A stretch of 64,000 bases of DNA, from contig CAUYUJ010000059.1 of assembly GCA_963575745.1 (NCBI GenBank), positions 372,001 through 436,000 of the forward strand, written 5' to 3'. Each line of letters begins with the position of its first letter. The stretch's first letter is position 1. The notes beneath the pieces were generated by a model. That model was given only the letters and a program-made list of their open reading frames with translations. It did not search any database and had not been told where the DNA came from. Positions 7,901-31,643 of the stretch are shown here, in pieces. The stretch is from Prorocentrum cordatum (Eukaryota). The position numbers were made by a program, and so were the translations under genes.

Positions 7901-9626
7901 CAAATGCCAGATTTTTTTTTAAACCATGGAAAATCAATGACTCAGGCATTTTCGGGCCTTCCTGGAGGCCCTCTTGGAGTCCTCTTGGGCGGTCTTGGAG
8001 ACCTTGGGGGCCTCTTGGGCCGTCTTGGGGCCTTCTTGGGGCCGTGTTGGGGGCCTCTCTGGGCCGTCATGAGGTCATCTGGGAGGCCTGTGGGGCCATC
8101 TTGGGGCGATCTCGGGGGCCTCTTGGGCCGTCTTGGGCCGTCGGAAGGCCGAAAATTAGAAAATGCCAAAATGTTTCGAACATCTACGGGCAACCCATGA
8201 TTTGTGCCTCTTCGGGCCTTCCTGGAGGTCTTCTTGGGGGCGTCTTGGGAGCCTCTTGGGCAGTCTTGGAGGTTTCTTGGGCAGACTCGGAGCCATCCTG
8301 GGCCGTCTTGGTGGCTTCTTCGGCGGACTTGGAGGCAACTTGGACCATATTGGGCTATCCTGGAGGCCATCCTGGAGGCCATCTTGGGCCAACGTGACCA
8401 TCTTAGATCGGGTATAGCCAGGGCCCAGGGTAAGGGGACCCTGTTAGTGGTAGGGACTTGGGGCCCCTCAATTGGCCAGATTCACCACACCAGGTTTGCC
8501 GTAACCGGTGTTTTCCGGGTGGCGGCAGTTCCGGTTCGTGGAGATGGGACGGGGGGGCGCCCCCGGTACAAATCGCTAAACCAGGTTCCATTAAACCCAG
8601 TTTTGCCAACGCCCGATTAGAAGCCATCTTGATCCGTATTGGGGGACTTTTTTTCTTGACGTTGTGCTCGTGTGTGCGGCCTTCCGGGTGGCCGGCGGCG
8701 TGCACCAGAACCCCAGCGGAAGTTCTTCTGGAAGAAGAAGAAGAAGACGAAACACCAAAAAGAAGAAGAAGAAGAAGAAGAAGTTCTTCTGGAAGAAGAA
8801 GCAGAAACACCAAAACCAAGCCGTATAGCGGTTAGCACGCCAGGCACCCTTGTGACAAGCACAGGGGGCGGCGGATTTAGCGGCTTTCGGCCCATCCCGC
8901 TACCGCCATTGGGATGTAGGTCAGAGGCCTCTTAAATGCAGGTCTGTCAGGAGGGGAAAAAAAACACACAGACACAATTAATCGTCCACTCCCAGGAAAA
9001 TATAGGAAAATATGGGAAGTGGGGGGGGAAGACAAAAACCCAGAAAATATGCGAAAATATGGGGAATCTTTTTATTTGTGTGTATTTATTTGTGTGTCCT
9101 GGGGCCCCTTCAGTCTGGGGATCTCTTGGAAGGCCTCTCCGAAGTCTCTTGGAGGCGGTGTGGGGGTGTCTTGGGGGCTTCTTTGGGGGCGTTTGGGGGT
9201 CTGATTTGGGCCTTCTGTGGGGGACTACTGGGGATTTGAGGGGCAACTCCGGGGCCTGTTAGTGGTCCCCGGGAACTTTAGGGGGCGGAGGGCTCGAAAT
9301 GTCGGTTCATGTTCCCTTCTTGAGGTTCTCTTGGGGCCCTCTTGTGTCGTCTTGACGCCATTTTGGGCGTCTGCAAGTGCTCTTGGGTCGTTTCGGGGCG
9401 TTCTTCCACCGTCTCGGGGACCGTTGGGGACCATCTCGGCCCGTCTCAGGGCCTCCAGGCTCGGGAGAAGTCACGCGGGAATACGCCCCAAATCCCAAGA
9501 GCGCCCGAGAACGTTCAGGATCGCTTGGAATTCGGGGCTGTGGAAGAGTAGTCTTGATTCTACGCAGAGGGTTCTTGGAGTTTTGAGGGCACTCAACTTC
9601 GTGTCTCTGGGGGCACAGTGGCGGAT
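4940..9626. repeat. GGCC(G/A/T)TCTTGG-type satellite-rich composite repeat array with hairpin modules
   Basis: Dense degenerate 10-11-mers. CACGCC...GGCGGAT modules at ~5463, ~6318 and 8834; the array ends in hairpin + GGCGGAT at 9626. Confidence 0.9.
8408..8616. mobile_element. MITE with TCGGG...CCCGA ends and 5-bp TSD TTAGA
   Basis: TTAGA at 8403-8407 and 8617-8621. Removing the insert and one TSD restores the host satellite (…ACCATC TTAGA AGCCATCTTGA). The TIR is imperfect beyond 5 nt. Confidence 0.8.
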
Positions 9627-9632
9627 TACAAG

Positions 9633-10173
9633 GACATCGTGCGCATCGAAGACCATAAGGTGACCGCTACGCGCACGGTGCCAGGTCCAACAGCGGAACG
9701 CAGCTTTTGGCATGGCCGCGAGATTCCAGGGATGCGTTCTCACATCTTCTTGATGACGCATGGTGGTGAGCAGACTAAGGCCGCTGTGGGCCTGAGCAAA
9801 GTGAACAACTTCGAAGCAGAATTGGTGGTATACCTCGCGTACTACTTGGTTTCGTGTGGCACGCCGCGCCCATCCATCGTCATAATCACACCGTACAAGG
9901 GGCAACTCATGCTCATCCGCAACATGCTCCTCAAGGATAAAACGAAGGACCGATTGCTGTCGTACGACAACACGGAGAAGGACCAGATTCGCGTGTCGAC
10001 AGTCGATCGTTTTCAGGGCGACGAGGCGGACGTCGTTATCGTCTCGCTGGTCGTGGACGAGAACTCGAGAACTCCCTTCGTGAAGTTGGTCAACCGCATG
10101 ATCGTGCTGCTGTCTCGCGCGCGTTTGGGTTTGTACGTGCTGGGGAACGTCAAGTACTTCGAGAGCCAGAAAG
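9633..10173 (+). CDS. ZNFX1-like gene, exon A: Upf1/DNA2-like SF1 helicase C-terminal domain (AAA_12-type)
   Basis: Motifs NNFEAELV, IITPYKGQ, STVDRFQGDEADVVIVSLV and NRMIVLLSRARLGLYVLGN. Probable AAG|G acceptor at 9632/9633 (start could be 9619-9633); AG|GA donor at 10173/10174. Confidence 0.9.
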
Positions 10174-10366
10174 GACCTCAGTATCCTTTAAACGATCCCC
10201 ATCCCCATCCCCATCCCCTTCGAGACCCCCACCAAATTACCACCCCAGTTGGGGATACACCCCTCGAAACCCGAAGGGAACGACATATCCCCACCTAGGG
10301 GGGCAAGTCGGCCAGTGGGGCCCAGGCCACGCCGCTGGGGATGGGGATCGGTTAAACGATACTCAG
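10174..10366 (+). mobile_element. 193-nt GA-AG intron created by a 188-bp TIR element (Introner) with TSD GGACC
   Basis: Element 10178-10365 has ~30-bp TIRs (3 mismatches) and GGACC at 10173-10177 and 10366-10370. Removing 10174-10366 joins FESQK-GPHGAAG in frame. Confidence 0.9.
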
Positions 10367-12399
10367 GACCGCACGGCGCAGCGGGCGTTGAACATTGGAT
10401 GAAGACTTTCGACATTCTGCAGAAGCCGCCCCAAAGCAGCGACAACGACGAGGAGCAGAGGGTTGTAGACCCGTTGGCGCACCTTGCGGTTGCCGGCGGC
10501 GACGGGGCCGATCCTCCCAGGCCGCCGGCTGAGCCGCAGACTATCGCGCTGACGGATGCCTTGTTCACTGAGCCACGTGTCGGCTCCAAGTTGCCACTGT
10601 GCTGCCCACAGCATCCGCGATTGTGTGGCAAATGCGTGGACAAGCCGAAAGATTTGATGTTGGGTTTCTGTGCAGTGCCTTGCGAGGTGAAGTTGCCGTG
10701 CACACACGCGTGCGGCATGAAGTGCCACTGGCCGCAGACGAAGCACGAGCGCAACTGCAAGGTCAAAGTGACCTCGCCGTGCTCGTACCATCCCGACGAA
10801 GTGACTTGCCGTTCAGTGTACGACAACAGCACTGCCGACCTGTACACCGACCCTACTATAGCCAATGCCCTGCAGCACTATCGCTGCCCTGCTCCAGTGT
10901 CTGTGACGCTCCCTTGCACGCACGAAAAGGACATGCCGTGTTGCGAGGAGACAGCTATCCGAGAACGTGGGGCTGCTTACCCACGGTGCGTGCGAGAGTC
11001 GCCACAGCCGTATGTCTACCCAGCCTGCCGGCACGAGAAGAGCGCCACGTGCGACAAGTTTGCGGAGTACACGAGGGACCCGACGTCGGCGCCGAAGTGC
11101 GTGGAGCTCGTGACTTACTGCCCGCTTACGTGTGACCACACGCGGCAAGTGAAGTGCCATCAGGAGCAGGATTACCGCGGCGGCAGGGCGTCTTACCAAT
11201 GTCCACAGAAGGTGAAGGTGCCGCTGCCACGCTGTGGGCACGAGCACACAGTAGCGTGCGCGAAAGCCAGGGAGCTGGATCAGTGGCAGGGTGCGAGAAG
11301 CAGAGAGCAGGACGTCGTGGAGGAGAACAGTACCTACGGCCCGAAGGACTACCAATGCCGTCAGAAGGTCACGTTCAAGCGCGCTTGCGGCCATGAGGTG
11401 TTGGATGTCGCCTGCGAAGAAGCGTTCTTGTGGGCTGCCAACGGGCCGCCGCCATGCATGGAGAAAGTTACTCGCCCGAGCCCATACTGCCAGCATGCGT
11501 GCGAGATCACCTGCCACGAGGCGATGGGTCTGAGGGATATGGCCCCAGTGGCGAGCGCACCGGTGGAGGTGGTGCACGAGGGCTCGGTGGAGTCGATGCC
11601 ACCTGGGCTTCCGCGGGCCATGGCCGAGTGCAAGACGATGGTCATGATGCGCCGCAGGTGCGGACACTCAAAACAAATGCAGTGCCACAGGGCCTCGCGA
11701 ATTCCAGACAAGTGTACTGAGGAGAAGTCGATGCAGAGTCCGCTCTGTGGCCACGAGATCAGAGTTCCTTGTCACTTACAGGCCACTTTGCACAAGTGGG
11801 CCCCGTGGAGCGACGACGTGCTGGGCACGCTCAGCAGTGAAGAGCGCTTACCGACCAGAGCAAAGCCGACGGGCCCAGCACCGTCCGAGGCACCGCTGCT
11901 GAATTGCTTGAAGGCGTGCAAACGGCACGTGATGGTGGAGAAGCCATGCGGCCATGAAACACGCTTGCAGTGCGGCGAGCTGATACAGGTGATTCGCGAT
12001 GGCGGCGAGGTCTTGAGGGGCAAAAAGTGTCAAGAAAATGTCGACTGGGAGTGCGAGAAGTGCGGGGCCGTGCACGAGATGGAGTGCAGCAAGCGCAAGC
12101 AGATCTCTGACGGCAGCCACAAGTTTGCATGCAAGGGCATGCGGGATATGCCTTGCTGGAACGTGGCCGCTTGCGGCTCGCAGGCGGTCACGGTGCCATG
12201 CGCCACAGAGGAGACTGCAGCGGTGTGTTGTGACCGCAGGTTGGAGTGGGTATGTTCTGCAGGCAAGCACAGGCACGTGCTGGCCCTGTGCGCGAAGGGG
12301 ATCCCGCGGAGCTGCCCAGACTGCAACAGCGACGCGATTGCTGAGTCCATGAATGCGGCGCAGCACTACGCGGAGGCGACCGATGAGGACTTGGCACAG
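10367..12399 (+). CDS. ZNFX1-like gene, exon B: NF-X1-like Cys/His zinc-finger repeat region
   Basis: About 11 C-x-H-x(5-6)-C motifs (e.g. LPCTHACGMKCH, LPRCGHEHTVAC, PLCGHEIRVPCH). Open for 677 codons. Probable phase-0 donor CAG|GT at 12399; an alternative is ATAG|GT at 12442. Confidence 0.88.
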
Positions 12400-12659
12400 G
12401 TGCCGATGAGCGAAGACACGACGGTGCTCAAGGGCAAAATAGGTAGGAAGACATTGCGAGAGCATGCCGCTTCTCGCTTTCAAACGCTGGCCTACCTCGA
12501 CACGTGTTCAGGGCTCGCGGGACTCCATGTTATGTAATCGTCCCGTTCATCCCGCCGGCCCGCACAATGTCATCGTTGCCGCGTGCCCGTCTGGTCTAAG
12601 CGACCGGGGGGGTGTTCGTGTATTCGTGGTCGACGGGAGATGTCTGGAAGGCGGTCGAT

Positions 12660-15600
12660 GGTTTTTCAGGGTACTCTTGAGACTAAGCTGGGTTTGCACC
12701 AGATGCCTCTGTATGAGGTTTCTTGGCGTCTCTTCGGGGGCCTCTTCTTGGCGGCACTGGACCATCTGCCTCTTTGGGAGACTTCTTGGGGCCCCTTCGG
12801 ATGCCTCTCGGGGTCTTCTTGGCCGCGTTGTTGTGACCTCCTGGAGCCTCTTGGGAGCTTTCTTGCCTTAGCTTTTGAGCCAGGCCATCTTGAGCCGTCT
12901 TGGAGGAAAAATTGTGCAATTGAGGTCCTTTCCGGGTGGCTGGCGGGACGGGCCGAAGCCCAAGGGGGAGGTCTTTGGGAAACAGAACCAAAACCAAAAC
13001 CAAAACCGAGAGGATTCAGCACGCCAGGCACCCTTGCGACAAGCACAGGGGGCGACGGATCGAAGACGCCTACGGCGAATCACCGCCGCCCCCTGCCTTT
13101 TCTGGAAGCGCCTATGTGGCCGAACGTTGATGCCAGACCTGCCAAGCTATCGGACCATGTGTTCCCCGAATCGGTTTGGAAAGCCTTCGGGGAGCACGTG
13201 GGCATCTTGAAGGTCATCTTGGCCGTCTGGAGGCCATTTTGACCCTGTCGGGCCTTCTGGAAGAGTCTTGGAGGGCTCTTGGGCCGTCTTGGAGGCCATC
13301 TTGAGCGTCTTGGAGGCCTCTTGGACCGTCTTGGGGGCCTCTTGGGGCCGTCTTGGGCCTCTTGGGCGATCTTTGGGGGCACTTGGGCCGTCTCGGGCCG
13401 TCGGAAGGCAGAAAAAATGCAAATGCCACAATCCTTCAAACACTTTTTTTTGAAAATCAATGATTTTGATCTTTTCGGGCCTTCCTGGAGGCCCTCTCGG
13501 GTGCGTCTTGGGCCGTCGTGGGCCATCTCAGGGCCATCTTCGGTCGTTTTGGTGGGCTCCTGGCCCGTCTGACGCCGTCGGAAGCCGTTTGGGGGGCCTC
13601 TCTGGACCGACTTGGGGCCCTCTTGGAATGCTCCAGGGCCGTCTTGGAGGCCATCTTGGGCGTCTTCAAGGCCTCCTGGGCCGTCATGAGAGCCTCTTGG
13701 GGCCGTCTTGGGGGCCTCTTGGGCCGTTCTGGGGCCATCTTGGAAGCCTCTTGGGCGATCTTTGGGCGATCTTTGGGGGCTCTTGGGCCGTCTCGGGCCA
13801 TCGGAATGCCGAAAAGAAGCAAATGTCAAAATTCTTCGAAAACCAAAGGAAAATAAATGTTTGTGCCCTTTTCTGGCCTTCCTGGAGGCCCTCTTGGAGG
13901 CCTCTTGGGCCGTCTTGGGCCATCTTCGTGCCATCTTCGGCCGTCTTGGTGGGTTCCGGGCACGTCTGACGCCGTCGGAAGCCGTTTGGGGGCCTCTCTG
14001 GGCCGACTTGGGGCCCTCTTGGGGCGCTTCGGGGCCGTCTTAGAGGCCATCTTGGGCGTCTTGGAGGCTTCTTGGCCCGTCTTGGGGCCCCCTTGGGGCC
14101 GTCTTGGAGGCCTCTTGGGCCCTCATGGGGCCATCCTGGAGGCCTCGTGGGCGATCTTTGGGCGATCTTGGGGGCCTCCTGGGTCGTCTGGAGCCGTCGG
14201 AAGGCCGAAAAGAAGCAAATGCCAAAATCTGTCGAAAACAATAAGGAGAGTAAGTGTTTTTGGCCTCTTCGGGCTCTCCTTGAGGACCTCTTGGAGGCCT
14301 CTTGGGTCGTCTTGGGCCGTCTTGGAGGCTTCTTGGGCGAACTTGGAGGTATCTTGGACTGGACTCTCTTGGGCCGTCTTGGAGGCCGTCTTGGACCATC
14401 TTGGGCGGACTTGGAGGCAATCTTGGAGGCCATCTTGGGCCAACGTGGCCATCTTGGGGGCCATCTTGGGCCATCTTGAACGAAAAAATGTGGAATTGGG
14501 CTCCTTGAGAGCCTTTCCGGGTGGCCGGCGGGACGCGCAGGAGCCCCAGGGGGGTTCTCTTGGAAAAGAACCAAAACCAAAACCGATAGGATCCAGCACG
14601 CCAGGCACCACTGTGATAAATCACAAGGGGGCGGCGGATAGAAGACGCCTACGGCGAATCACCGCCGCCACCTGCCTTTTTAAAACCGCCTATGTGGCCG
14701 AACGTTGAGGCCAGACCTGCCAAGCTATCGGACCATGTGTTCCCCGAATCGGTTTGGAAAGCCTTCAGGGAACACGTGGGCATCTTGAAGGTCATCTTGG
14801 CCGTCTGGAGGCCATTTTGACCCTGTCGGGCCTTCTGGGAGGACGTCTTGGAGGGCTCTTGGGCCGTCTTGGAGGCCATCTTGAGCGTTTTGGAGGCCTC
14901 TTGGACCGTCTTGGGGGCCTCTTGGGGCCGTCTTGGGCGATCTTTGGGGGCACTTGGGCCTTTCGGGGCCCTCCTGGAGGCTTTCTTGGGCCGTCTGGGG
15001 CCATCTGAAGGCCATCTTCGGCCGTCTTCGTGGGCTCCTGGCCCGTCTGACGCCGTCGGAAGCCGTTTGGGGGGTATCTCTGGCCGACTTGGGGCCCTCT
15101 TGGAATGCTCCAGGGCCGTCTTGGTGGCCGTCTTGGGCGTCTTAAAGGCCTCCTGGGCCGTCTTGGGGGCCTCTTGGGGCCGTCTTGGGGGCCTCTTGGG
15201 CCGCTCTGGGGCCATCTTGAAGGCCTCTTGGGCGATCGTTGGGCCGTCTCGGGCCGTCGGAAGGCCGAAAAGGCGCAAATGCCGCAATCCTTCAAGAACA
15301 TACGTGTTTTTGTCCTTTTCTGGCCTTCCTGGAGACACTCTTGGAGCCCTCTTGGGCCAGCTTCGAGCCAACTTCGGCCATCTTGGTGGGTTCCTGGCAC
15401 GTCTGACGCCGTCGGGAGCCGTCTTGGGGGCCTCTCTGGGCCGACTCGGGGCCCTCTTGGGGCGCTTCGGGGCCGTCTTAGAGGCCATCTTGGGCGTCTT
15501 GGAGGCTTCTTGGCCCGTCTTGGGGGCCTCTTGAGGCCGTCTTGGAGGCCTCTTGGGCCGTCATAGGGCCATCTTGGAGGCCTCGTGGGCGATCTTGGGG

Positions 15601-18600
15601 CGGTCGTGGGGGCCTCTTGGGCCGCTTGAGCCGTCAGAAGGCCGAAAAGAAGCAAATGCCAAAATTCTTCAAACATGTCTTTGGAGAATCAATGATTTTG
15701 GCCTCTTCGGGCCCTCCTGGGGGACCTCTTGGAGCGTCTGGGAGGCCTCTTGGGAGTCTCTTGGGCCGTCTTGGGCCATCTTGAGGCTATCTTAGGCCGT
15801 CTTGGGTGCATCTTGGGCCGTCTTGGAGGCATATTGGGACCATCTTAGCCGTCTTGGAAGCCATCTTGGGGCCGTCTGGGACAGGAAAACCGTTTGCAAC
15901 CAGGTCTTCCGGGTGGCCGGTGGGACGGGCCGAAGCCCCATGGGGGGTTATTTTGGAAAAAGAAAAAAAAACAAAACCGAGCGGATTCAGCACGCCAGGC
16001 ACCTTTGCGATGAATCGACAGGGGGCGGCAGATCGAAGACGCCTACGGCGAATCACCGCCGCCCTCTACCTTTTGGGAAGCGCCTATGTGGCCGAACGTC
16101 GAGGCCAGACCTGCCAAGCTATCGGACCATGTGTTCCCCAAATCGGTTTGGAAAGCCTTCGGGGAACACGTGGGCATCTTGAAGGTCATCCTGGCCGTCT
16201 GGAGGTCATTTTGACCCTTTCTGGCCTTTGGGAGGACGTCTTGGAGGGCTCTCGGGCCGTCTTGGAGGCCATCTTGAGCGTTTTGGAGGCCTCTTAGGCC
16301 GTCTTGGAGGCCTCTTGGGGCCGTCTTTGGCTATCTTTGGGTGCACTTGGGCCGTCTCGGGCCGTCGGAAGGCAGAAAAAAAGCAAATGCCACAATCCTT
16401 CAAAACCTCATGGGAAATCAATGATTCTGGGCTTTTCGGGCCTTCCTGGAGGCCCTGTTGGAGGCCTCTTGGGCCATCTAAAGGCCATCTTCGGTTGTTT
16501 TGGTGGGCTCCTGGCCCGTCTGACGCCGTCGGAAGCCGTTTGGGGGGTCTCTCTGGGCCGACTTGGGGCCATCTTGACTCCAGGGCCCTCTTGGTCGCCA
16601 TCTTGGGCGTCTTAAAGCCTCCAGGGCCGTCCTGGGGGACTCTTGGGGCCGTCTTTGGGGCCTCTTGGGCCGTTCTGGGGCCATCTTGAAGGCCTCTTGG
16701 GCGATCTTTGGGGGCACTTGGGCCGTCTCGGGCCGTCGGAAGGCCGAAAAGAAGCAAGTGCCACAATCATTCAAACACCTGAAGAACATACGTGTGTTTG
16801 GCATTTTCTGGCCTTCCTGGAGGCCCTCTTGGAGGTCTCTTGGGCCATCTTGAGCCAGCTTCGAACCAACTTCGGCCATCTTGGTGGGTTCCTGGCACGT
16901 CTGACGCCGTCGGGAGCCGTCTTGGGGGCCTCTCTGGGCCGACTTGGGGCCCTCTTGGGGCGCTTCGGGACCGTCTTAGAGGCCATCTTGGGCGTCTTGA
17001 AGGCCTCTTGGCCCGTCTTGGGGGCCTCTTGGGACCGTCTTTGGGGCCTCTTGGGCCGTCATGGGGCCATCCTGGAGGCCTCGTGGGCGATCTTGGGGCG
17101 ATCGTGAAGGCCCCTTGGGCCGTCTTGAGCCGTCGGAAGGCCGAAAGGAAGCAAGTGCCAAAATCCTTCAGAAACCTTAGGAGAACATGATTTTGGCCTC
17201 TTCGGGCCCTACTGGACGACCTCTTGGAGCGTCTGGGAGGCCTCTTGCCAACATGGCCATCTTGGAGCGTCTGAGAGGCCTCTTGCCAGGATTATGTGGG
17301 GACGCTGAGGTGGTTTACGCGGCCTTCCGAGACCCCAGCGGAACGGGTTGAAGCCCCAGGGGCAGTTATTTGGGAAAAGAACCAAAACCGATAGGATTCG
17401 GCATGCCAGGCACCCTGCGATGAATCGACAGGGGTCGGCGGATCGAAGACGCCTACGGCGAATCACCGCCGCCCCCTGCTTTTTTGGGAAGTGCCTATGT
17501 GGCCGAACGTTGAGGCCAGACCTGCCAAGTTATCGGATCATGTGTTCCCCGAATCGGTGTGGAAAACTTTCGGGGAACACGTGGGCATCTTGAAGGTCAT
17601 CTTGGCCGTCTTGGAGGACGTCTTGGAGGACTCTTGGGCCGTCTTGGAGGCCATCTTGAGCGTCTTGGAGGCCTCTTGGGCCGTCTTGGGGGCCTCTTGG
17701 GGCCGTGTCTTGGGCCTCTTGGGCAATCTTTGGGGGCACTTGGGCCGTCTCGGGCCGTCGGAAGGCAGAAAAAAAGCGAATGCCACAATCCTTCAAAAAC
17801 CCATGGGAAGTCTATAATGTTGGCCTTTTCGGGCCTTCCTGGAGGGGCCTCTTGGGCAGTCTTGGGCCATCTTAGGGCCATCTTCGGGGCCCTCTTGGTG
17901 GTCTCTTGGCCCGTCCGACGCCATCGAAGCCGTTTGGGGGGCCTCTCTGGGCCGACTTGGGGCCTCTTGGTATGTTCCAGGGCCGTCTTGGAGGCCATCG
18001 TGTGTGTCTTAGAGGCCTCCTGGGCCGTCTTGGGGGCATCTTGGGGCCGTCTTGGGGGCCGCTTGGGCCGTTCTGGGCCCATCTTGGAAGCTGGGCGATC
18101 TTTGGGCGATCTTTAGGGGCTCTTGGGCCGTCTCGGGCCGTCGGAAGGCCGAAAAGAAGCAAATGTAAAACATCCTTCAAAAACCTTCGGAAAACCAATG
18201 TTTTTTGGCTCTCTGTTTGTTGCCTTCCTGGAGGCCCTCTTGGGAGCCTCTTGGGCCGTCTTGGGCCAGTTTCGAGCCAACTTCGGCCACCTTGGTGGGT
18301 TCCTGGCACGTCTGACGCCTTCGGGAGCCGTCTTGGGGGCCTCTCTGAACCGATTTGTGGTCCTCTTGGGGCACTTCGGGGCCGTCTTCGAGGCCATCTT
18401 GGGCGTCTTGGAGGTCTCCTGGGCCGTCTTCTTGGGCCGTCATGGAGCTCTCTTGGAGGCATCGTGGGCGATTTTGGGACGATCTTGGCGGCCTCTTGGG
18501 CCGACTTGAGCCGTCGGGATGCCGAAAAGAGGCAAAAGCCAAACATCTTCACAAACCTAAGGAAAATCAATGATTTTGGCCTCTTCGGGCCCTCCTGAAG

Positions 18601-21600
18601 GACCTCTTGGAGGCCTCTTGAGTCTTGAGGGCCTCTTGGGCCGCCTTGGAGGCCATCTTGGACCATCTCTAGGCCATCTTGGCCATGTTGGAAGACATCA
18701 TGTCGGCCCTCTTCGATCATCTTGGCCATGTTGCAGGCCATCTTGGGCCATCTTCGCGATTTGTTGAGGATGTCCCTAGCGAAACGGCCTTTTTGGGGGC
18801 TTTGCAGCCACCTCTGGGCAAGCGTCCCGGGACCCCGGCGGGACGGGCCGAAGCCCCAGGGGGAGTTCTTTTGGAAAAAACAAAAACAAAACCGATAGCG
18901 TTCAGCACGCCAGGCACCCCTGGGGCGACGGATCTAGTACGCCTACGGCGAATCACCGCCGCCCCCTGCCTTTTTGGAAGCGCCTATGTGGCCGAACGTT
19001 GAGGCCAGACCTGCCAAGCTGTCGGCCCATGTGTTCCCCGAACCGGTTTGGAAAGCCTTCGGGGAACACGTGGGCATCTTGAAGGTCATCTTGGCCGTCT
19101 GGAGGTCATGTTGACCCTTTCGGGCCTTCTTGGAGGACATCTTGGAGGGTTCTTGGGCCGTCTTGGAGGCCGTCTTGAGCGTCTTGGAGACCTCTTGGGC
19201 TGTCTTGGGGGCCTCTGGGGGCCGTGTCTTGGGCCTCTTGGGCAATCGGGCACTTGGGCCGTCTCGGGCCGTCGGAAGGCAGAAAAAAAGCAAATGCCAC
19301 AATCCTTCAAAAACCCATGGGAAGTCTATGATTTTGGCCTTTTCGGGCCTTCTGGAGGCCCTCTTGGAGGCCTCTTGGGCCGTCGTGGGCCATCTTCGGG
19401 CCATGTTCGGCCGTCTTGGTGGGCTCCTGGTCCGTCTGACGCGCCGTCGGAAGCCGTTTGGGGAGCCTCTATGGGCCGACTTGGGGCCCTCTTGGAATGC
19501 TCCAGGGCCGTCTTCGAGGCCATCTTGGGCGTCTTAAAGGCCGCCTGTGCCGTCTTGGGGGCCTCTTGGAGCCCTCTTGGGCCGTCATCGGGCCATCTTG
19601 GAGGCCTCTTGGGCGATCTTTCGGCGATCTGTGGGGGCTCTTGGACCGTCTCGGGCTGTCGGAAGGCCGAAAAGGCGCAAATGCCGCAATCCTTCAAAAA
19701 CCCATGGAAAATCAATGATTTTGGCCTCTTGTGGCCTTCCTGGAGGACCTGTTGGGGGCCTGTTGGGCCGTCTTGGGCCAATTTCGAGCCAACTTCGGCC
19801 ACCTTGGTGGGTTCCTGGCACGTCTGACGCCGTCGGGAGCCGTCTTGGGGGCCTTTCTGGGCCGACTTGGGGCCCTCTTGGGGCGCTTCGGGGCCGTCTT
19901 GGAGGCCGTCTTGGGCGTCTTGGAGGCCATTTTGGGCGTGTTGGAGGCCTCTTGAGCCGTCTTGGGGCCCTCTTGGGGCCGTCTTGGAGGCCACTTGGAC
20001 CGTCATGGGGCCTTTTTGGGGGCCTCTTGGGCGATCTTGGGGCGATCTTAGGGGGCCTCTTGGGCCGTCTTGAGCCGTCGGAATGCCGAGAAGAAGCAAC
20101 TGCCAAAATCCTTCAAAAACCTAAGGAAGATCAATGATTTTGGCCTCTTCGGGTCCTCCTGGAGGACCTCTTGGATGCCTCTTGGGTCGTCTTGGGCCGT
20201 CTTCGAGGCGTCTTGGGCGACCTTGGAGGTATCTTGTACTCTCTTGGGCCGTCTTGGACCATCTTGGGCGGACTTGGAGGCCATCCTGGGCCATCTTGGA
20301 GGCCATCTTGGGCCAACGTGGCCATCTTGGAGGCCATCTTGAACCATCTTGGAGGATTTTTTTCCGGATTGAGCTCCTTGATCTTTTCCGGGTGGCCGGC
20401 GGGACGGGCCGAAGCCCAGGGGGAGTTCTTTTGGAAAAAGAACCAGAACCAAAAGCCATCTCGTTTGGCACGCCAGGCACCCCTTTGCTAAAGCAAAAGG
20501 GGGCGGCGGATCGAAGACGCCTACGGCGAATCACCGCCGCCCCCTGCCTTTGTGGAAGCGCCTATGTGGCCGAACGTTGAGGCCAGACCTGCCAAGCTAT
20601 CGGACCATGTGTTCCCCGAATCGGTTTGGAAAGCCTTCGGGGAACACGTGGGCATCTTGAAGGTCATCTTGGCCGCCTGGAGGCCATTTTGACCCTTTCG
20701 GGCCTTCTTGGAGGACGTCTTGGAGGGCTCGTGGGCCGTCTTGGAGGCCATCTTGAGCGTCTTGGAGGCCTCTTGGGCCGTCTTGGGGGCCTCTTGGGGC
20801 CGTCTTGGGCGCCTCTTGGGCCGTTCTGGGGCCATCTTGGAGGCCTCTTGGGCGATCCTTGGGCGATCTTTGGGAGCTCTTGGGCCGTATCGGGCCGTCG
20901 GAAGGCCGAAACGAAGCAAATGTCAAAATCCTTCAAAAACCTTTGGAAAAAAAACACTCTTTTTGACCTTTTCTGGCCTTCCTGGAGGCCCTCTTGGAGG
21001 CCTCTTGGGCAGTCTTGGGCCAGCTGCGAGCCACCTTCGGCCATCTTGGTGAGTTCCTGGCCCGTCTGTCGCCGTCGGAAGCCGTTTGGGGGGCCTTTCT
21101 GGGCCGACTTGGAGCCCCCTTGGGGTGCTCCAGGGCCGTCTTAGAGGCCATCTTGGGCGTCTTCGAGGCCTCCTGGGCCGTCTTGGCGCCCTCTTGGGGC
21201 CGTCTCGGGGGCCTCTTGGGCCGTCATGCCAAAATCCTTCAAAAACCTAAAGGAAATCAAGGATTTTGGCCTCGTCGGGCCTTCCTGGAGGACCTCTTGG
21301 AGGCCTCTTGGGCCGTCTTGGAGGCCTCTTGCGGGCCTTTTGGGCCGTCTTAGACCATGTTGATGCCATCTTGGGCCGTCTTGGATGCATCTTGGGACCA
21401 TCTTAGCCGTCTTGGAGGCCATCTTGGCTGTCTTGGAGGCATCTTGCAGGCCATCTTGGGCCATCTTCGCGATTTTGTGAAGATGTCCCGAGCGAAACGG
21501 CCGTTTTGGGCATTGACTGATGCAGTTTCCGGGTGGCCGGCGGGACGGGCCGGAGCCCACTGGGGAGTTCTTTTGGAAAAGAACCAAAACCAAAACCAAG

Positions 21601-23250
21601 AGGGTTCAGCACGCCAGGCACCCCTGCGATGAATCGACAGGGGACGGCGGATCGAAGACGCCTACGGCGAATCACCGCCGCCCCCTGCCTTTTTGGAAAC
21701 GCCGATGTGGCCGAAAGTTGGACTAGAGCTTGGCCAAGCTATCGGACCATGAGTTCCCCGAGTCGGTTTGGAAAGCTTTCGGGGAACACATGGGAGAGAA
21801 TGATTATGAACAGGAAGAGGAAGAGGAAGAAATAGAGTAGGAGGATGAGGGTTGTTAGGAGTCTCTTGGGGCACCCTTGGGGTCTGTTGGGGCTTCTTGG
21901 GGGCCTCTTCGAGGCCTCTTGGAGGCATCTTGGGGGCCTCCTTGGGCCTCTTGGGGGCCTTTGGGGGCTTCCTGGGGGTCTCTTTGGCCGTCTTAGGGCG
22001 TTCCTGGTCCGTCTGACGCCGTCTGGAGCCGTCTTGGGGGCCTCTCTGGGCCGTCTTGGGGCCCTCTTGGGGCGCTTCAGGGCCGTCTTGGAGGCCATGT
22101 TGGGCGTCTTGGAGGCCTCTTGGGCCGTCTTGGGGCGCTCTTGGGGCCGTCTTGGGGGGCCCTTGGGCCGTCATAGGGCCTTCTTGGAGGCCTCTTGGGC
22201 GATCTTGGGGGCCTCTTGGGCCGTCGGAAGGCCGAAAAGAAGAAAACGCAAAAAACCTTCAAAAACCTAAGGAAAACCAATGATTTTGGCCTCTTCGGGC
22301 TCTCCTGGAGAACGTCTTGGAGGCCTCTTGGGCCATCTTGGAGGCATCTTGGGGCCATCTTGGCCGTCTTGGAGGGCATCTTGGGCCGTCTTGGAGGCAT
22401 CTTGGAGCCATCTTACCCGTCTTGGAGGCCATCTTGGCCGTCTTGGAGGCATCTTGGAGGCCATCTTGGGCCATCTTGGCCGTCTTGGAGGCCATCTTGG
22501 GCCAAGTTGGGGCAACAAAGGCATTGACAGACGGATTTTCGGAAACTTGCGGGTGGCCGGCGGGACGGGCCGAAGCCCACTGGGGAGTTCTTTTAGAAAA
22601 AGAACCAAAACCAAAACCTGAAACGTCCAGCACGCCGTGCACCCCTGTGGCAAGACCACAGGGGGCGGCGGATCCTAGTGGCCTTCGGCCCATCCCGCCA
22701 CAGTGCATGGGTTGTGGGTCTGAGGCCTCTTGTATATGTGTTGGGGTGTCGTGGGGAGCTTCTCGGGGGCCTCCTGGAGGCGGTTTGGGCGCCTCTTTCG
22801 GGCCTCTTGGGGCCTCGTGAGGTATCTTTTGGGTCTCTTGGAGGCCTCTTGGGCGCCTCTTGGCGGCCTCTTGGGGCCTCCTGGGGGCTTTCGGGGCACA
22901 AATATGAAATTTTCAGTTCGTGGTCCTCTGCTTGGGCCCTCTTGGAGCAGTCTTGGGGCCCTCTTGGGCCGTCTTGAGCGCTTCTTGGGCAATCTTGGAG
23001 CCCTCTTGGGCCGTCTGGGAGCCTTCTTGGAGGCCTCTTGGGCTGTCTCTGGGCGGTCTGGGGAGCTTTTTGAGCCGTCTTGGAGCGTCGGACGGCCGAA
23101 AATGCGAGACGGCCAAAATGTATCAAAACCCTAGTAAAATCAACGATGTGGGTCTCTTGGGGCTCTGTCGGGAGGCCTCTTGGGGTCTCTTGAGGCCCTC
23201 TTGGGCCGTCTTGGAACCATCTTCGGGCGCTTTGGAAAATTCTGGGCCTC
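12660..23250. repeat. Head-to-tail tandem array of ~1.0-1.6 kb satellite-filled units, each with a structured module
   Basis: The module AGCACGCC...GGCGGAT recurs at ~13018, 14595, 15989, 17399, 18904, 20466, 21607 and 22628, with shared flanks such as CCGGGTGGCCGGCGGGACGGGCCGAAGCCC and CTATCGGACCATGTGTTCCCCGAA. Confidence 0.92.
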
Positions 23251-23600
23251 GGCAATGTGAAGACGGCGCAACTTGCAATGGATTATGGACTCGGGGACGC
23301 GAATATTGCAGAAGTTACGAATGTTTGTTGCCTCGGGGGCGCACAAATTCTATACTGTTGGAGGTTTGTGGCCTCGGTGACGCGAATCTGATGGACACTA
23401 CAACGGATTATGGTCTCGGGGACACGGATATTGCAATTTACCCGGGTTTGTTGATTCGAGGTCGCGAATATTATGTAATTTAAGCAGGTTCGTTGCGGAC
23501 GCAAAAATTGTGTAATGTAGGAAGGGCTGTGGCCTGGGAGACGCGAACATTGCATAACTTACCAAGGGAGTATGGCCTCGGGAATGCACAATTCGTGTAC
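23230..23600. repeat. Degenerate ~60-bp tandem repeat (TGGCCTCGGGGACGCGAATATTGCA-like)
   Basis: The motif recurs about 6-7 times with substitutions. Confidence 0.6.
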
Positions 23601-24142
23601 TGTTACGTGTCTCACGCTCCCCAGGAGCTCAGAGAACGCGACCCGGGCGTGGTAGCCGGGTGGTTAAGGGCTCCAGCCCCCTCGCGCGGGCTTCAACCAT
23701 TTTCAGTAGGAAGCAGACAACAGCATTGCAACATCTGGAGACGTGAACTTGCAACCGGCGCAGGGAGCAGCAACCACAAGGGGGCCGGCGGATCCTCCCG
23801 GGAGGGGGAGCGGGGGTCCAGACCCCCCCTTAGGTTTTTCCCACGGGCGGGGGGCGGACGTGGAGGGGAGGGGGGTTTGGTGGGGGGGTGACCCCCCCTG
23901 AGGAGTTGCATATGGAAGGGGGGGTGCCCGCTGGCTCCTCCTCCTCCTCCTCCTCCTCCTCCTCCTCCTCCTCCTCCTCCCCCTCCTCCTCCTCCTCCTC
24001 CTCGTTCCTGACCCTCGTTTCGGGCCGGCGACGGTGGAGCGCGCCCCCCTCGGAAGTGTTGCTCCTTGAGCTGCGCGCGCCGGGCCTCGTTTGCCCGCGT
24101 CCTCGCGTGCCGCTCAGCATCACTTTATACAGTCGGGGCGCT

Positions 24143-24292
24143 GGAGAAGGAACCCTTGTCATTGGGGAGGGGCTCCGTGTTCCTTAATTGTTTGACAGCT
24201 TGCCTCAGGGTTTCCTTAGGTTTCCGATGGGAAATCGAAATTTAACTGATGGGAAAAAGGGGCCTCGTTCCTTATTTAGCGTTCCTTAGGTC
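24143..24292. mobile_element. ~150-bp inverted-repeat-bounded dispersed element (also at ~29151-29302 and ~43073-43222)
   Basis: Ends are TGxxxAAGGAAC...GTTCCTTRGGTCA, with a shared internal GGGGCTCCGTGTTCCTT-like and GGGGCCTCGTTCCTTAT sequence. No TSD is visible. Confidence 0.65.
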
Positions 24293-24704
24293 AACGCCCC
24301 CACTGTAAGGAAGGGGGGGGTGCCCGCGACGGTCCTGACCCACCCTTCCGATACCTGTTTCGGGGCGGCGACGGTGGAGCGCGCCCCCCTCTCGGAGGTT
24401 CTGCTCCTTGAGCTGCGCGCGCCGGGCCTCTTTTGCCCGTTGCCTCGCGTGCCGCTCAGCATCACCTTAGGAGGGGAAGAAACACACAGACACAATTAAT
24501 CGTCGATTTCCAGGAAAATATGGGAAAATATGGGAAGTGGGGGGGAGATAAAAAGCCAGAAAATACAGGAAAATATGGGGGATCCTTTTATTCGCAACCC
24601 TCATGCGTTGGGTTCTCGTTTTGAATAGAGCACTGCTCGCGCGAACCTTCCTTCCCGTCCCTCTCTCCCCCCCTGCCTTTTACCTGGCTCGTCGCTGCGT
24701 TTCG

Positions 24705-26800
24705 AGGGCTGCTGGGGGCTGCGATCTGTGAAACTGTCGCCACTTTCGAGGGCTGCTGGGGGGCCCAGCACAGTGGGTACCCACGGCAGACTCACATGGG
24801 ACCTCGCCATCCGTGGGGGGCTGCGATCTGTGAAACTGACGCCACTTTCGAGGGCTGCTGGGGGGCCCAGCACAGTGGGCACCCACGGCGGATTCAAATG
24901 GGACCTCGCCATCCCTGGGGGGCTGCGATCTGTGAAACTGTCGCCACTTTCGAGGCTGCTGGGGGGCCCAGCACAGTGGGCACCCACGGCGGATTCAAAT
25001 GGGACCTCGCCATCCCTGGGGGGCTGCGATCTGTGAAACTGTCGCCACTTTCGAGGCCTGCTGGGGGGCCCAGCACAGTGGGTACCCACGGCGGATTCAA
25101 ATTAGGACCTCGCCATCCCTGGGGGGCTGCGATCTGTGAAACTGTCGCCACTTTCGAGGCCTGCTGGGGGGCCCAGCACAGTGGGTACCCACGGCGGATT
25201 CAAATGGGACCTCGCCATCCCTGGGGGGCTGCGATTTGTGAAACTGTCGCCACTTTCGAGGCTGCTGGGGGGCCCGGCACAGTGGGTACTGGGGTGGCGA
25301 TCCCGCCACTTTCGAGTGTAAATTCAAATGGGACCTCGCCATCCCTGGGGGGCTGCGATCTGTGAAACTGTCGCCACTTTCGAGGGCTGCTGGGGGGCCC
25401 AGCACAGTGGGTACCCACCGCAGACTCAAATGGGACCTCGCCATCCCTGGGGGCTGCGATCTGTGAAACTGTCGCCACTTTCGAGGCCTGCTGGGGGGCC
25501 CAGCACAGTGGCCCACGCGCCATCCCTGGGGGGCTGCGATCTGTGAAACTGTCGCCACTTTCGAGGGCTGCTGGGGGGCCCAGCACAGTGGGTACTCACC
25601 GCAGACTCAAATGGGACCTCGCCATCCCTGGGGGGCTGCGATCTGTGAAACTGACGCCACTTTCGAGGCTGCTGGGGGGCCCAGCACAGTGGGTACCCAC
25701 GGCGGATTCAAATAGGACCTCGCCATTTCTGGGGGGCTGCGATTTGTGAAATTGTCGCCACTTTCGAGGGCTGCTGGGGGGCCCGGCACAGTGGGTACCC
25801 ACGGCAGACTCACATGGGACCTCGCCATCCCTGGGGGGCTGCGATCTGTGAAACTGTCGCCACTTTCGAGCCCTGCTGGGGGGCCCAGCACAGTGAGTAC
25901 CCACGGCGGATTCAAATGGGACCTCGTCATCCCTGGGGGGCTGCGATCTGTGAAACTGTCGCCACTTTCGAGGGCTGCTGGGGGGCCCAACACAGTGGGC
26001 ACTCACGGCGGATTCAAATGGGACCTCGCCATCTCTGGGGGGCTGCGATCTATGAAATTGTCGCCACTTTCGAGGCCTGCTGGGGGGCCCAGCACAGTGG
26101 GTGCCCACGGCGGATTCAAAGGCTGCTGGGGGCTGCGATCTGTGAAACTGTCGCAACTGTCGACGGCTGCTGAGGGTCCCAGCACAGTGGGTACTCACCG
26201 CAGATTCAGATGGGACCTCGCCATCCCTGGGGAGCTGCGATTTGTGAAACTGTCGCCACTTTCGAGGGCTGCTGAGGGGCCCAGCACAGTGGGTACTCAC
26301 CGCAAACTCAACTGGGACCTCGCCATCCCTGGGGGGCTGCGATCTGTGAAACTGTCGCCACTTTCGAAGGCTGCTGAGGGGCCCAGCACAGTGGGCACTC
26401 ACCGCAAACTCAAATGGGACCTCGCCATCCCTGGGGGGCTGCGATCTGTGAAACTGTCGCCACTTTCGAGGGTTGCTGAGGGGCCCAGCACAGTGGGTAC
26501 TCACCGCAAACTTAAATGGGACCTCGCCATCCCTGGGGGGCTGCGATCTGTGAAACTGTCGCCACTTTCGAGGCCTGCTGGGGGGCCCAGCACAGTGGGT
26601 ACTCACCGCAGACTCAAATGAAACCTCGCCATCCCTGGGGGGCTGCGATCTGTGAAACTGTCGCCCCTTTCGAGGGCTGCTGGGGGGCCCAGCACAGTGG
26701 GTACTCACAGCAGACTCATACTAGACCTCGCCATCCTTGGGGGGCTGCGATCTGTGAAACTGTCGCCACTTTCGAGGGCTGCTGAGGGGCCCAGCACAGA
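24705..26800. repeat. Minisatellite, ~102-bp unit, ~20 copies
   Basis: GCGATCTGTGAAACTGTCGCCACTTTCGAG recurs at 24721, 24823, 24925, 25026 and onward. The whole unit is conserved, with no unique spacers. Confidence 0.97.
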
Positions 26801-27879
26801 GGGCTTCCCGCACGTCTTTCTCCTTCTCTTCGTTCCCGGTTCCCCACGTTTTCTTCGAGCCTGTAGTTGTCGCCCCTCGTTCTTGTATGGTTCTCCTGCG
26901 CATCATGCCATTGGCGCGTGTCCCAAGTAGCTTACATATCAAACAAAGGATCCTGCAATTTGATGGTCCGTGCAAGTTTCGGCCAACTCCTCGTTTCCCA
27001 TGGTACAAATGGGTTGGGTACGTCACAGGGTAATTGTGTGTATTTATTTGTGTGTGTCCCAGTTCCCCTTCACTTCTATCGTGCATCTCATGATACAGAC
27101 GGATACAAGTCTGCCCCTGTCTCCTCCCTCCCGGCGAAGGGGAGTTCATTGGGGGTCGCAGGGTGTCTCTATCCGTTACTGGCTGGCCCACGTACTTCAG
27201 GCAGGCGCGCCATTTCCGTCAGAACACATTCGCGCATTCTATTTGCCAGGAAAACAACCCCATCCCCCTTTCACCCGAATCATGTGTTACAAATGTAGAT
27301 GATGGCCCTGGATGAACGCTTCCGACGGCTTTGGTTTTCTTACGCCATTATGGGCCATCTTGCGAGATTGGGGCCTTTGGCGCCACCAAGAGCGAAGAGC
27401 TTGGAGGATGGGCGGACCATGTGGTAGGAATGCGCGAGGGTGTTTCTGCTCCTTGCCACCTGGCAAGATTGAAAGATCCCCATCCGTCATGCTTCGTCCC
27501 AGCCAGCGCCACCCTTGTTCCGAGCTTTACTCGCACGATAGGGGCAGTTACAATGCACACGCAAAGCGGGAGTCACGGCGGGCCCCCGCAGAGAAGCGAG
27601 CGCGCAAGTATCGCGACTAATGAGAGCGCATAGGTATGGAGTGACAAGGGAGAGGGGGAGGAGGGGGAGGAGGAGAAAGAGGAGGAGAAAGAGGACGTTG
27701 ATCGAATTTTGTTGTCCGCATCGTGGTGCTGAGGGGGGGGGGGGGATGAACAAGCTAGGTGCGCTCGCGTCATATCTGAAGTCCTACCCCTCCCTCCAAT
27801 CCCTTACCATGGCGTAGATATCCTCTCTATTCGCCCAGTCGGATGTCGCAGCATGGCATAATATTACATGGCATAGCAT

Positions 27880-28570
27880 GGTGTCGAAGATCAACGCGTA
27901 GCATGACACAGCATGGCGTGGGGACGCCCCAAGGTGGGGGGGGGGCTTCTGCGGCCCAAAAATCAACGAATCTACACCGAATGTGTAGTCACTTCCGATG
28001 GTTTCTTCGGGAGACCATTTTTCAGATGGTGGGGCCCATTTGGAAGGGGCATGGCACTCGAAATAATGACGCCAGCGCTGCAGCGCTGCAGCGCGGAAGC
28101 GCGGAAATGAGGCCAGCGCTGCAGCGGGAGCACGATTCGGAACGAACGGTAGCACGAAAATGAGGCCAGCGCTGCAGCGAGAGCAGCAGCATTTTGAAAA
28201 AAAATCAGCGCGGAAGCGCGGAAATGAGGACGCGTAGCTTGACATAGCATGGCGTGGCGACGCCCCAAAGTGGGAGGGCGAGGGGGGGGCTTCCGCGGCC
28301 CAAAAAATCAATGAATCGACACCGAATGTGTAATCACTTCCGATGGTTTCTTTGGGTGGGCATCTTCTAGATTTGGGGGCCTGTTTGGAAGGACCGAAAA
28401 CCATGCCGTGGCATGGCGCTGGAAATAATGACGCCAGCGCTGCAGCGGGAGCACGATTCGGAACGAGCGGAAGCGCGGAAATGAGGCCAACGCTGCAGCA
28501 GGAGCACGATTCGGAACAAGTGTTAGCCCGAAAATAAGGCCAGCGCTTCAGCGGTAGCAGCATGTTGGAA
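27880..28570. repeat. Local ~330-bp duplication with GCCAGCGCTGCAGCG sub-repeats
   Basis: 27900-28200 resembles 28230-28560. Confidence 0.75.
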
Positions 28571-29489: not shown

Positions 29490-29534
29490 CCCTCCTCCAC
29501 CTCCTCCTCCTCCTCCCTCCTCCTCTCCTCCTCC

Positions 29535-29566
<32 letters not shown>

Positions 29567-30605: not shown

Positions 30606-30649
<44 letters not shown>

Positions 30650-31224: not shown

Positions 31225-31291
<67 letters not shown>

Positions 31292-31611: not shown

Positions 31612-31612
31612 C

Positions 31613-31643
<31 letters not shown>

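What the first reader, a model, noticed from the sequence alone, without database searches (positions are those of the whole stretch)
10173..10370. An intron made by a TCRG...CYGA / 5-bp-TSD MITE, with both splice sites formed at element/target junctions
Seen: AA-GGACC-[TCAGTATCC...GATACTCA]-GGACC. The donor (AG|GA) lies inside the left TSD. The acceptor AG is the element's terminal A plus the first G of the right TSD. Removing 10174-10366 deletes exactly the element plus one TSD and restores the frame (QK-GPH). One TIR mismatch (expected ...ACTGA, observed ...ACTCA) turns a GAG acceptor into CAG, which looks like post-insertion optimisation. Known: Introner transposons and GA/GC donors are described in dinoflagellates. 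Inference: any element of this end-type landing at A^GG[ATC]NN in an exon becomes a precise intron, which would link the common MITEs here to intron gain.
Basis: partly seen in the sequence, partly recalled or inferred. Interest (0 to 1): 0.82.

Follow-up and report, generated by a model that had tools for sequence, protein, structure and literature searches.

The report
Transposon-made intron in a helicase gene
A 188-base miniature transposon sits inside a helicase exon of a dinoflagellate-type genome and is removed from the message as a precise 193-base intron, which is a clean example of a route to new introns already well described in this group.

Summary
A non-coding 188-bp element (10178-10365) has terminal inverted repeats matching at 26 of 29 positions. 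It is flanked by a perfect 5-bp repeat, GGACC, and interrupts the AAA_12 helicase exon of a ZNFX1-like gene. Read through, the frame stops at a TAG. Removing 193 nt restores a frame that aligns without a gap to the closest homologues. In 1 of 4 public runs laid on the region, a contig skips exactly these 193 nt. Contigs of that run and two others also cross a separate 31.4-kb GT-AG intron, so they come from spliced RNA. Of the seven equivalent cut positions, only 10174-10366 gives GA...AG. Contigs from three runs match the element's right end and diverge at 10365, so that end is repeated elsewhere and the boundary is real. Five other TIR elements with 5-bp duplications lie in the window.

The mechanism is not new. 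Introners whose splice sites come from the duplication or span the element/duplication junction, and GA donors in young introns, are published for dinoflagellates. The claimed post-insertion change of GAG to CAG is not supported. I rate this a new member of a known kind, of modest interest.

The parts
9625..10173 (+). Exon piece encoding the C-terminal part of the AAA_12 (UPF1/ZNFX1-type) helicase domain. Its last base, G at 10173, is the first base of the left duplication.
   Evidence: Pfam AAA_12 E=1.3e-27. All 12 homologues used in tblastn begin to match at 9627. Contigs of X1 and X2 begin to match at 9625.
10173..10177 (+). Left copy of the 5-bp target-site duplication GGACC. The inferred donor G|GA lies inside it.
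   Evidence: (D6). The joint is ambiguous over 6 nt, as a duplication predicts.
10174..10366 (+). The intron as most likely spliced: 193 nt, GA...AG, phase 1.
   Evidence: An X2 contig of 647 nt skips 193 nt (10171->10365, movable by up to 6). This is the only one of the 7 equivalent cuts with G[ACT]...AG. The frame and the match to homologues are restored.
10178..10365 (+). 188-bp non-coding TIR element (MITE-type). The RNA folds into one long hairpin.
   Evidence: Fold -96.4 kcal/mol against a shuffle mean of -72.2, z=-5.09, 0 of 200 shuffles as stable. Other copies end their match at 10365 in X1 (2 contigs) and X2 (1 contig).
10178..10206 (+). Left terminal inverted repeat (29 nt), followed by CCCCAT short repeats.
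   Evidence: 26 of 29 positions match the right arm.
10337..10365 (+). Right terminal inverted repeat (29 nt). Its last base A supplies the A of the acceptor AG.
10366..10370 (+). Right copy of the duplication GGACC. Its first G completes the acceptor AG, and the exon resumes at 10367 with GA.
10367..12423 (+). Next exon: a linker followed by Cys/His-rich NFX1-type repeats of the ZNFX1-like protein.
   Evidence: Open frame. Aligns to P0002 and other homologues. Covered by contigs with 0 mismatches in X1, X3 and X10.
12424..43883 (+). Inferred 31.4-kb GT...AG intron of the same gene, full of repeats. It serves here as an internal control that the contigs come from spliced RNA.
   Evidence: Contigs of X1, X2 and X10 leave the genome at 12429, each with 1 mismatch. 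P0002 residues 876-980 match 43887-44210. The joined model aligns to P0002 end to end.
43884..44453 (+). Last detected coding exon of the gene.

Best explanation
A non-autonomous cut-and-paste DNA transposon, 188 bp long with roughly 29-nt TIRs and making 5-bp target-site duplications, inserted into the coding exon of a ZNFX1-like helicase gene of a dinoflagellate-type genome. The target was GGACC, preceded by A.

The duplication starts G-G-A and the element ends in A. The insertion therefore created a donor (AAAG|GACC...) inside the left duplication. It also created an acceptor (...CTCAG|GA) from the element's last A plus the first G of the right duplication. The spliceosome of this lineage accepts GA donors. 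It removes exactly the element plus one duplication (193 nt), so the mRNA is identical to the pre-insertion message. The TIRs and internal palindrome can fold the intron into a hairpin that brings the two splice sites together.

Shown: the anatomy, the frame restoration, a 193-nt skip in an RNA-type contig, and repetition of the element's right end elsewhere.

Inferred: the transposition event itself, the exact GA/AG cut, and any role for the hairpin.
For: - Anatomy: the sequence, TIRs and duplication are as stated.
- The element must be removed: the unspliced frame stops at TAG 10296-10298, and 193 is not a multiple of 3.
- Spliced product: it is open for 870 codons. It aligns across the junction without a gap to the two closest homologues (P0002 ...YFENRKGPHASADVKHW..., P0003 ...YFDSQRGPNGSAEVKHW...), with the junction codon Gly conserved.
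- Direct skip: 1 of the 4 runs laid (X2) has a 647-nt contig explained entirely by 9956-10171 plus 10365-10795. The skip is 193 nt with 6 nt of positional ambiguity.
- Hint from a second run: in X10, which is on record as polyA RNA, a contig with 0 mismatches ends its match at 10177. That is the last position the ambiguity allows. It has 8 further letters that do not follow into the element. This is a weak hint only.
- The contigs are spliced RNA: contigs of X1, X2 and X10 all leave the genome at 12429 with one mismatch each. This fits a GT donor at 12424 joined to an exon starting at 43884.
- The element's end is repeated elsewhere. Loose ends lie exactly behind 10365 in X1 (2 contigs) and X2 (1 contig). 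An X10 contig matches 10322-10369 and then diverges. Two X2 contigs start to match at 10309. X1 depth is about 5 times higher in the element bins (23.5 and 25.6) than in the flanking bins (4.8 and 4.3).
- Related elements: five further TIR elements with perfect 5-bp duplications lie in the same window.
- Hairpin: z=-5.09.
- Splice-site context: both this intron and the 31-kb intron have AG|GH at the acceptor. Roy et al. report this motif for dinoflagellates, and report GA donors enriched in young introns.
Against: - The skip is seen in only 1 of 4 runs. In the other three, no listed contig bridges the site in either form, and 122 contig pieces were not shown.
- The X2 contig differs from the window at 7 positions in the 431 nt downstream. 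It therefore comes from another allele, strain or paralogue, which might simply lack the element.
- The label RNA for X2 is the tool's guess. I rest it on the behaviour of the contigs at the 31-kb intron.
- The contigs are assembled, so they cannot show retention levels.
- No full-length second copy of the element was seen. There is none in the window, and the whole genome is not held.
- No transposase was found in the window.
- DNA of orthologues could not be examined, so the age of the intron is unknown.
- The GA donor is chosen by elimination and was not read from a strand-resolved junction.
Confidence: 0.8

Rival explanations
1. The insertion has disabled this gene copy and is not spliced. 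The 193-nt 'skip' contig comes from an intact allele or paralogue with an empty site, so what is seen is an insertion polymorphism and not an intron.
For: The X2 contig with the skip carries 7 differences from the window in 10365-10795. No contig identical to the window bridges the junction with 31 or more letters on each side. Dinoflagellate genes are often multi-copy (general knowledge).
Against: The flanking exons of the window's copy are intact over more than 870 codons and through the next exon. Contigs with 0 mismatches to the window cover both flanking exons in X1, X3 and X10, so this copy or an identical one is expressed. The X10 polyA contig with 0 mismatches stops matching at 10177 and does not run on into the element. 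The cut offers a donor and acceptor of the types this lineage uses.
Confidence: 0.1
2. The mechanism is the same but the anatomy differs. On this reading the element is 189 bp (10178-10366), carries its own AG acceptor and makes a 4-bp duplication, GACC. This is the 'Symbiodinium-like' GHNN class. The extra G at 10173 would be coincidence.
For: Roy et al. describe this exact pattern, a 4-nt GHNN duplication with the 3' splice site at the element's end, as common in Symbiodinium and in Polarella classes 4 and 5. One X10 contig keeps matching to 10369.
Against: Three contigs of other copies (2 in X1, 1 in X2) stop matching at 10365, not 10366. The 5-nt repeat is perfect. The five other TIR elements in the window all have 5-bp duplications.
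Confidence: 0.07
3. The segment is removed by a hairpin-guided route that does not depend on the spliceosome's dinucleotide rules. This has been proposed for the non-canonical introner elements of Amoebophrya, and the cut could then lie anywhere in the repeat.
For: The segment has inverted repeats and a 5-nt direct repeat overlapping the boundaries, as in the definition of Farhat et al. (IR 8-20 nt, DR 3-5 nt). The hairpin is strong.
Against: A GA...AG cut with AG|GH context is available. The other intron of the gene seen here is plain GT...AG. The closest named protein relatives are core dinoflagellates (Symbiodiniaceae, 65-68% identity), not Syndiniales.
Confidence: 0.03

Closest known systems
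Introner-like elements (ILEs) of Polarella glacialis and Symbiodinium (Roy et al., bioRxiv 10.1101/2020.10.14.339549; I read parts 1-2 of the full text. The published version in Curr Biol 2023 I saw only as a reference.)
   Same: These are TIR DNA elements with 3-8-nt target duplications. They become introns because splice sites are recruited from the duplication, from the element's end, or across the element/duplication boundary. Splicing restores the original mRNA. GA donors are typical of young introns, and GH follows the acceptor. A class with a 5-nt duplication exists (class 12).
   Different: The layout here is a GGHNN duplication, with the donor at duplication bases 2-3 and the acceptor made of the element's last A plus duplication base 1. 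That layout is not one of those spelled out in the text I read. Class 12 uses NAGGH or NNAGG and starts with C. Boundary-spanning sites are described for class 9, which has a 3-nt duplication.
Introner elements of Amoebophrya (Farhat et al. 2021, PMC7789003; passages read), with the same operational definition applied to Prorocentrum cordatum and other dinoflagellates (Dougan et al., bioRxiv 10.1101/2022.07.25.501386; passages read)
   Same: Introns with inverted repeats of 8-20 nt at both ends and direct repeats of 3-5 nt overlapping the boundaries, forming hairpins. The intron here meets that definition.
   Different: Most Amoebophrya cases lack any conserved splice dinucleotides. Here a GA...AG cut is available. 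The supplementary tables listing the P. cordatum cases could not be opened, because bioRxiv supplements are closed.
Introners across eukaryotes (Gozashti et al. 2022, PMC9860276; Gozashti et al. 2025, PMC12130899; passages read)
   Same: These papers describe Symbiodinium microadriaticum introners with TIRs and 4-bp duplications that carry the 3' site and co-opt the 5' site. [quoted passage not shown]
   Different: Here the duplication is 5 bp and the family is different. The copy number and the share of copies that are introns are unknown.

Membership tests
Introner / introner-like element of the DNA-transposon type | The segment is an intron, that is, absent from the mature message | tested here: met
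   A 193-nt skip is seen in one contig of 1 of the 4 runs laid (X2). The contigs of that run behave as spliced RNA at a second intron. There is a weak hint in the polyA run X10. Frame and homology are restored. Caveat: the contig is from a variant allele.
Introner / introner-like element of the DNA-transposon type | Terminal inverted repeats | tested here: met
   26 of 29 positions match. 85-nt arms are 71% complementary.
Introner / introner-like element of the DNA-transposon type | Target-site duplication flanking the element | tested here: met
   Perfect GGACC on both sides. Shuffled windows gave 0 such TIR-plus-5-nt-repeat structures.
Introner / introner-like element of the DNA-transposon type | Splice sites come from the duplication or the element's ends, so that splicing removes the element plus one duplication | tested here: met
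   193 = 188 + 5. Only the cut 10174-10366 gives GA...AG.
Introner / introner-like element of the DNA-transposon type | Many similar copies in the same genome | tested here: inconclusive
   The right-hand 45-57 nt recurs in at least 4-6 contigs with different flanks in X1, X2 and X10. No full-length second copy was seen: none in the window, and the genome is not held.
Introner / introner-like element of the DNA-transposon type | Other copies also form introns in other genes | not testable with these tools
   This needs the whole genome and its transcriptome. Of the right flanks seen, one begins GGAC and the others begin TC.. and AA... Not all copies can therefore use the same acceptor.
Introner / introner-like element of the DNA-transposon type | Recent gain: the orthologous site in relatives has no intron | not testable with these tools
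   Only protein homologues were available. Their DNA could not be fetched.
MITE of a transposon superfamily that makes 5-bp duplications | Short, non-coding, with TIRs and a 5-bp duplication shared with other elements of the genome | tested here: met
   The element is 188 bp. Five other elements with 5-bp duplications lie at 43655-43857, 46140-46332, 47759-47925, 55042-55865 and 63090-63286.
MITE of a transposon superfamily that makes 5-bp duplications | An autonomous partner encoding a transposase with matching TIRs | tested here: not met
   No transposase domain was found in the 126 ORFs of 170 aa or more in the window. This says nothing about the rest of the genome.
Amoebophrya-type non-canonical introner | IR of 8-20 nt and DR of 3-5 nt at the boundaries | tested here: met
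Amoebophrya-type non-canonical introner | No usable GY/GA...AG pair at the boundaries | tested here: not met
   A GA...AG cut is available within the ambiguity of the joint.

The most novel reading that the evidence does not exclude
The element may represent a so far uncatalogued introner family of a high-G+C dinoflagellate, belonging to a MITE group that makes 5-bp duplications and ends in T...A. In such a family the acceptor would be assembled across the element/duplication junction and the donor would sit at duplication bases 2-3 (GGHNN targets). Its ...CTCA end, a departure from the TC.G...C.GA symmetry of its neighbours, could be a family-level adaptation that turns GAG into CAG. The insertion in this helicase gene may also still be polymorphic: the variant X2 allele might be an empty site. 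That would give a natural before-and-after pair for an intron gain.
Probability: 0.25. Interest if true: 0.45.

Novelty: new member of a known kind. Interest (0 to 1): 0.3.

Why it matters
This is a clean, single-locus illustration of how a MITE landing on a proto-splice site becomes a precise intron. It sits in a conserved gene where the pre-insertion protein sequence can be read from homologues. It adds a 5-bp-duplication layout to the published list of splice-site recruitment modes in dinoflagellates. It does not change the picture: the mechanism, the GA donors and the boundary-spanning splice sites are all in print. Its practical value is for annotation. Gene callers for this genome should allow GA...AG introns bounded by TIRs and short direct repeats.

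Tried and rejected
- Whole-genome search for copies: no genome is held for this window.
- Sensitive blastn of the element against the window: only itself and its own palindrome, with no second copy.
- Scan of JGI metagenome contigs with a 20-nt degenerate TIR pattern: 1 hit (L001). On reading, it has no element structure, so it is a chance match.
- The same pattern in viral contigs: 0 hits.
- Earlier notes of this scan by place, sequence and words: nothing.
- Pfam on ORFs upstream of 9625, and tblastn with 12 homologues: the N-terminal helicase exons are not in the window.
- Search for a partner of a possible 8-nt repeat (ATTACAAG) at the upstream acceptor, and for GTGCTC downstream: no partner was found in the window.
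- Transposase search in the 126 window ORFs of 170 aa or more: none.
- Alternative parse with a CTCAG duplication and a 180-bp core: rejected. Removing 185 nt breaks the frame, and other copies end at 10365.
- Runs X1, X3 and X10 gave no listed contig bridging the junction with enough letters on both sides. I do not count that absence of cover for or against splicing.

Full report
**What is in the sequence.** At 10173-10370 the plus strand reads GGACC, then a 188-bp segment (10178-10365), then GGACC again. The segment starts TCAGTATCC... and ends ...GATACTCA.
- The first and last 29 nt of the segment are inverted repeats matching at 26 of 29 positions, with mismatches at positions 2, 9 and 15.
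- The whole segment is an imperfect palindrome with 85-nt arms that are 71% complementary.
- As RNA it folds into one long hairpin: -96.4 kcal/mol against a shuffle mean of -72.2, z=-5.09, with 0 of 200 shuffles as stable.
- It has no coding capacity.
- I scanned the window for TIRs (at least 13 of 16 matches) with a flanking direct repeat. The scan found 4 distinct elements with a 5-nt repeat, a second reading of this element, and one row with a 6-nt repeat. Two shuffled windows gave none with 5 nt or more.
- A laxer scan (11 of 14 matches, 5-nt repeat) gave 23 rows against 9-12 in five shuffles.

**The host gene.** The segment lies in a plus-strand gene for a ZNFX1-like helicase.
- The upstream reading frame carries the C-terminal part of an AAA_12 domain (E=1.3e-27).
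- Of 104 homologues with E<=1e-10, the named ones include 'NFX1-type zinc finger-containing protein 1' of Durusdinium trenchii (65% identity) and an Effrenium voratum protein (68%). The best, unnamed hit is 72% identical.
- The genome is therefore of dinoflagellate type, and this organism's own protein is not in that collection.
- Window G+C is about 0.60, at the top of the range reported for dinoflagellates. I did not determine the species.

**The segment must be removed.**
- Read through, the frame runs into a TAG at 10296-10298, and 193 is not a multiple of 3.
- Removing 10174-10366 gives ...YFESQK-G-PHGAAGVEHW... and 870 open codons.
- In an alignment with 18 homologues, the two closest (P0002 and P0003) run across the junction without a gap and share the junction glycine. 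More distant ones vary in length just after it, in a linker.

**Evidence from transcripts.** One search found 20 runs holding part of the stretch. I laid 4 of them (X10, X1, X2, X3) on 5000-13400.
- In X2, a 647-nt contig is explained entirely by 9956-10171 plus 10365-10795. The skip is 193 nt and its position can slide over 6 nt, as a direct repeat predicts.
- The other three runs have no listed contig bridging the site in either form, and 122 contig pieces were not shown.
- In X10, the one run on record as polyA RNA, a contig with no mismatches stops matching at 10177. That is the last position the ambiguity allows. It has 8 more letters that do not continue into the element. I count this only as a hint.
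- The X2 contig differs from the window at 7 positions downstream, so it comes from another allele, strain or copy.

**Are these contigs spliced RNA?** Contigs of X1, X2 and X10 all leave the genome at 12429, each with one mismatch. Residues 876-980 of homologue P0002 match 43887-44210. A model that joins 12423 to 43884 aligns to P0002 end to end. The single mismatch is what a GT donor at 12424 predicts, because the next exon begins GCGCTC where the genome at 12424 reads GTGCTC. The gene therefore has a 31.4-kb GT...AG intron, and the contigs come from mature RNA. This makes splicing the simplest reading of the 193-nt skip.

**Where the cut lies.** The joint can lie at seven equivalent positions. 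Only 10174-10366 begins G[ACT] and ends AG (GA...AG). The exon then ends AAAG and resumes GA. This matches the dinoflagellate pattern of GT, GC or GA donors and AG|GH acceptors. The donor is therefore bases 2-3 of the left duplication.

**Is the element mobile?**
- No second copy is in the window, the genome is not held, and scans of metagenome and viral contigs gave nothing real.
- The laid runs do show that the right end is repeated. Contigs match up to 10365 and then go on differently in X1 (2 contigs) and X2 (1 contig). One X10 contig matches 10322-10369 and then diverges. Two X2 contigs begin to match at 10309.
- X1 depth is about five times higher over the element than over the flanking exons.
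- This places the element's right boundary at 10365. It favours a 5-bp duplication over the alternative reading of a 4-bp GACC duplication with an AG-ending element.
- The window holds five more TIR elements with perfect 5-bp duplications. They lie at 43655-43857 and 63090-63286 (one family), and at 46140-46332, 47759-47925 and 55042-55865.
- None is related in sequence to the 188-bp element, and none has a GGHNN duplication.
- No transposase was found in the window.

**What is not supported.**
- The TIR has three mismatches in its first 16 positions, so one at position 2 is unremarkable.
- One copy cannot show which arm changed.
- Contigs of other copies align through 10363-10365, which suggests the ...CTCA end is shared by the family.
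- If it is an adaptation at all, it arose in the family and not in this locus. I could not test that.

**Comparison with what is known.**
- Roy et al. describe dinoflagellate introner-like elements with TIRs and 3-8-nt duplications. Their splice sites come from the duplication, from the element's end, or from across the boundary. The classes include one with a 5-nt duplication, and GA donors are enriched in young introns.
- Gozashti et al. describe the same range across eukaryotes.
- Farhat et al. and Dougan et al. define introner elements in Amoebophrya and other dinoflagellates by inverted repeats of 8-20 nt plus direct repeats of 3-5 nt at intron ends. This intron meets that definition.
- The exact layout here is a GGHNN target, with the donor at duplication bases 2-3 and the acceptor made of the element's A plus the duplication's G. 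It is not one of the layouts spelled out in the text I read, but it is a small variation on them.
- A search for papers holding 'dinoflagellate', 'MITE' and 'target site duplication' returned 4 papers. None describes this family (listing only).

**Verdict.** The core interpretation, a MITE insertion that became a precise GA...AG intron, is well supported at about 0.8. The main open alternative is that the spliced-looking contig comes from an empty-site allele (0.1). The finding is a new member of a known kind, and its interest is modest.

Noticed in passing
window 12424-43883: The ZNFX1-like gene appears to have a 31.4-kb GT...AG intron. RNA-type contigs of three runs leave the genome at 12429, and the homologue's C-terminus resumes at 43884. 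The intron is filled with repeats.
   Followed up: partly
window 43655-43857 and 63090-63286: Two copies of one MITE family with TIR TCGGGCCGGACGAA... and 5-bp duplications ACGTT and GTTGA. The first copy ends 26 nt upstream of the acceptor AG of the 31-kb intron.
   Followed up: partly
window 46140-46332, 47759-47925, 55042-55865: Three more TIR elements of different families, each with a perfect 5-bp duplication (GGGGG, TGACT, CAGAG). The 824-bp element contains a long CCT microsatellite.
   Followed up: partly
window 9625-9632: Contigs of X1 and X2 begin to match at 9625, but the nearest AG|G acceptor is at 9631-9632. This implies that the upstream exon ends in the same 8 letters, so the boundaries of the upstream intron may carry an 8-nt direct repeat and it may be a second transposon-derived intron. 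Its 5' end is not in the window.
   Followed up: partly
window 8954-9112: A segment of about 160 bp in the upstream intron has 30-150 times the contig depth in all four runs. Many contigs diverge at 8954 and at 9112-9116. It is a highly repeated, transcribed short element.
   Followed up: no
window 13265-22479 and 24714-26803: Tandem arrays lie inside the long intron. One set has units of about 96, 386 and 396 bp rich in CTTGG/GGCC motifs. Another is an array of 20.6 copies of a 102-bp unit, with a 306-bp higher-order period.
   Followed up: no
window 29491-30170 and 40806-41660: Two long CCT microsatellites of 229 and 287 copies. The strong negative GC skew at 40-42 kb comes from the second one.
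   Followed up: no
window 36292-38310 (- strand): A 673-aa open frame with a weak, sub-threshold RNase H match (E=8.9e-4). It may be a retroelement remnant inside the long intron.
   Followed up: no
window 10369-12537: The Cys/His-rich exon gave no Pfam hit in the local Pfam copy. Its homologues carry precomputed PF26600 and PF26601, which are probably newer models than those held here.
   Followed up: no
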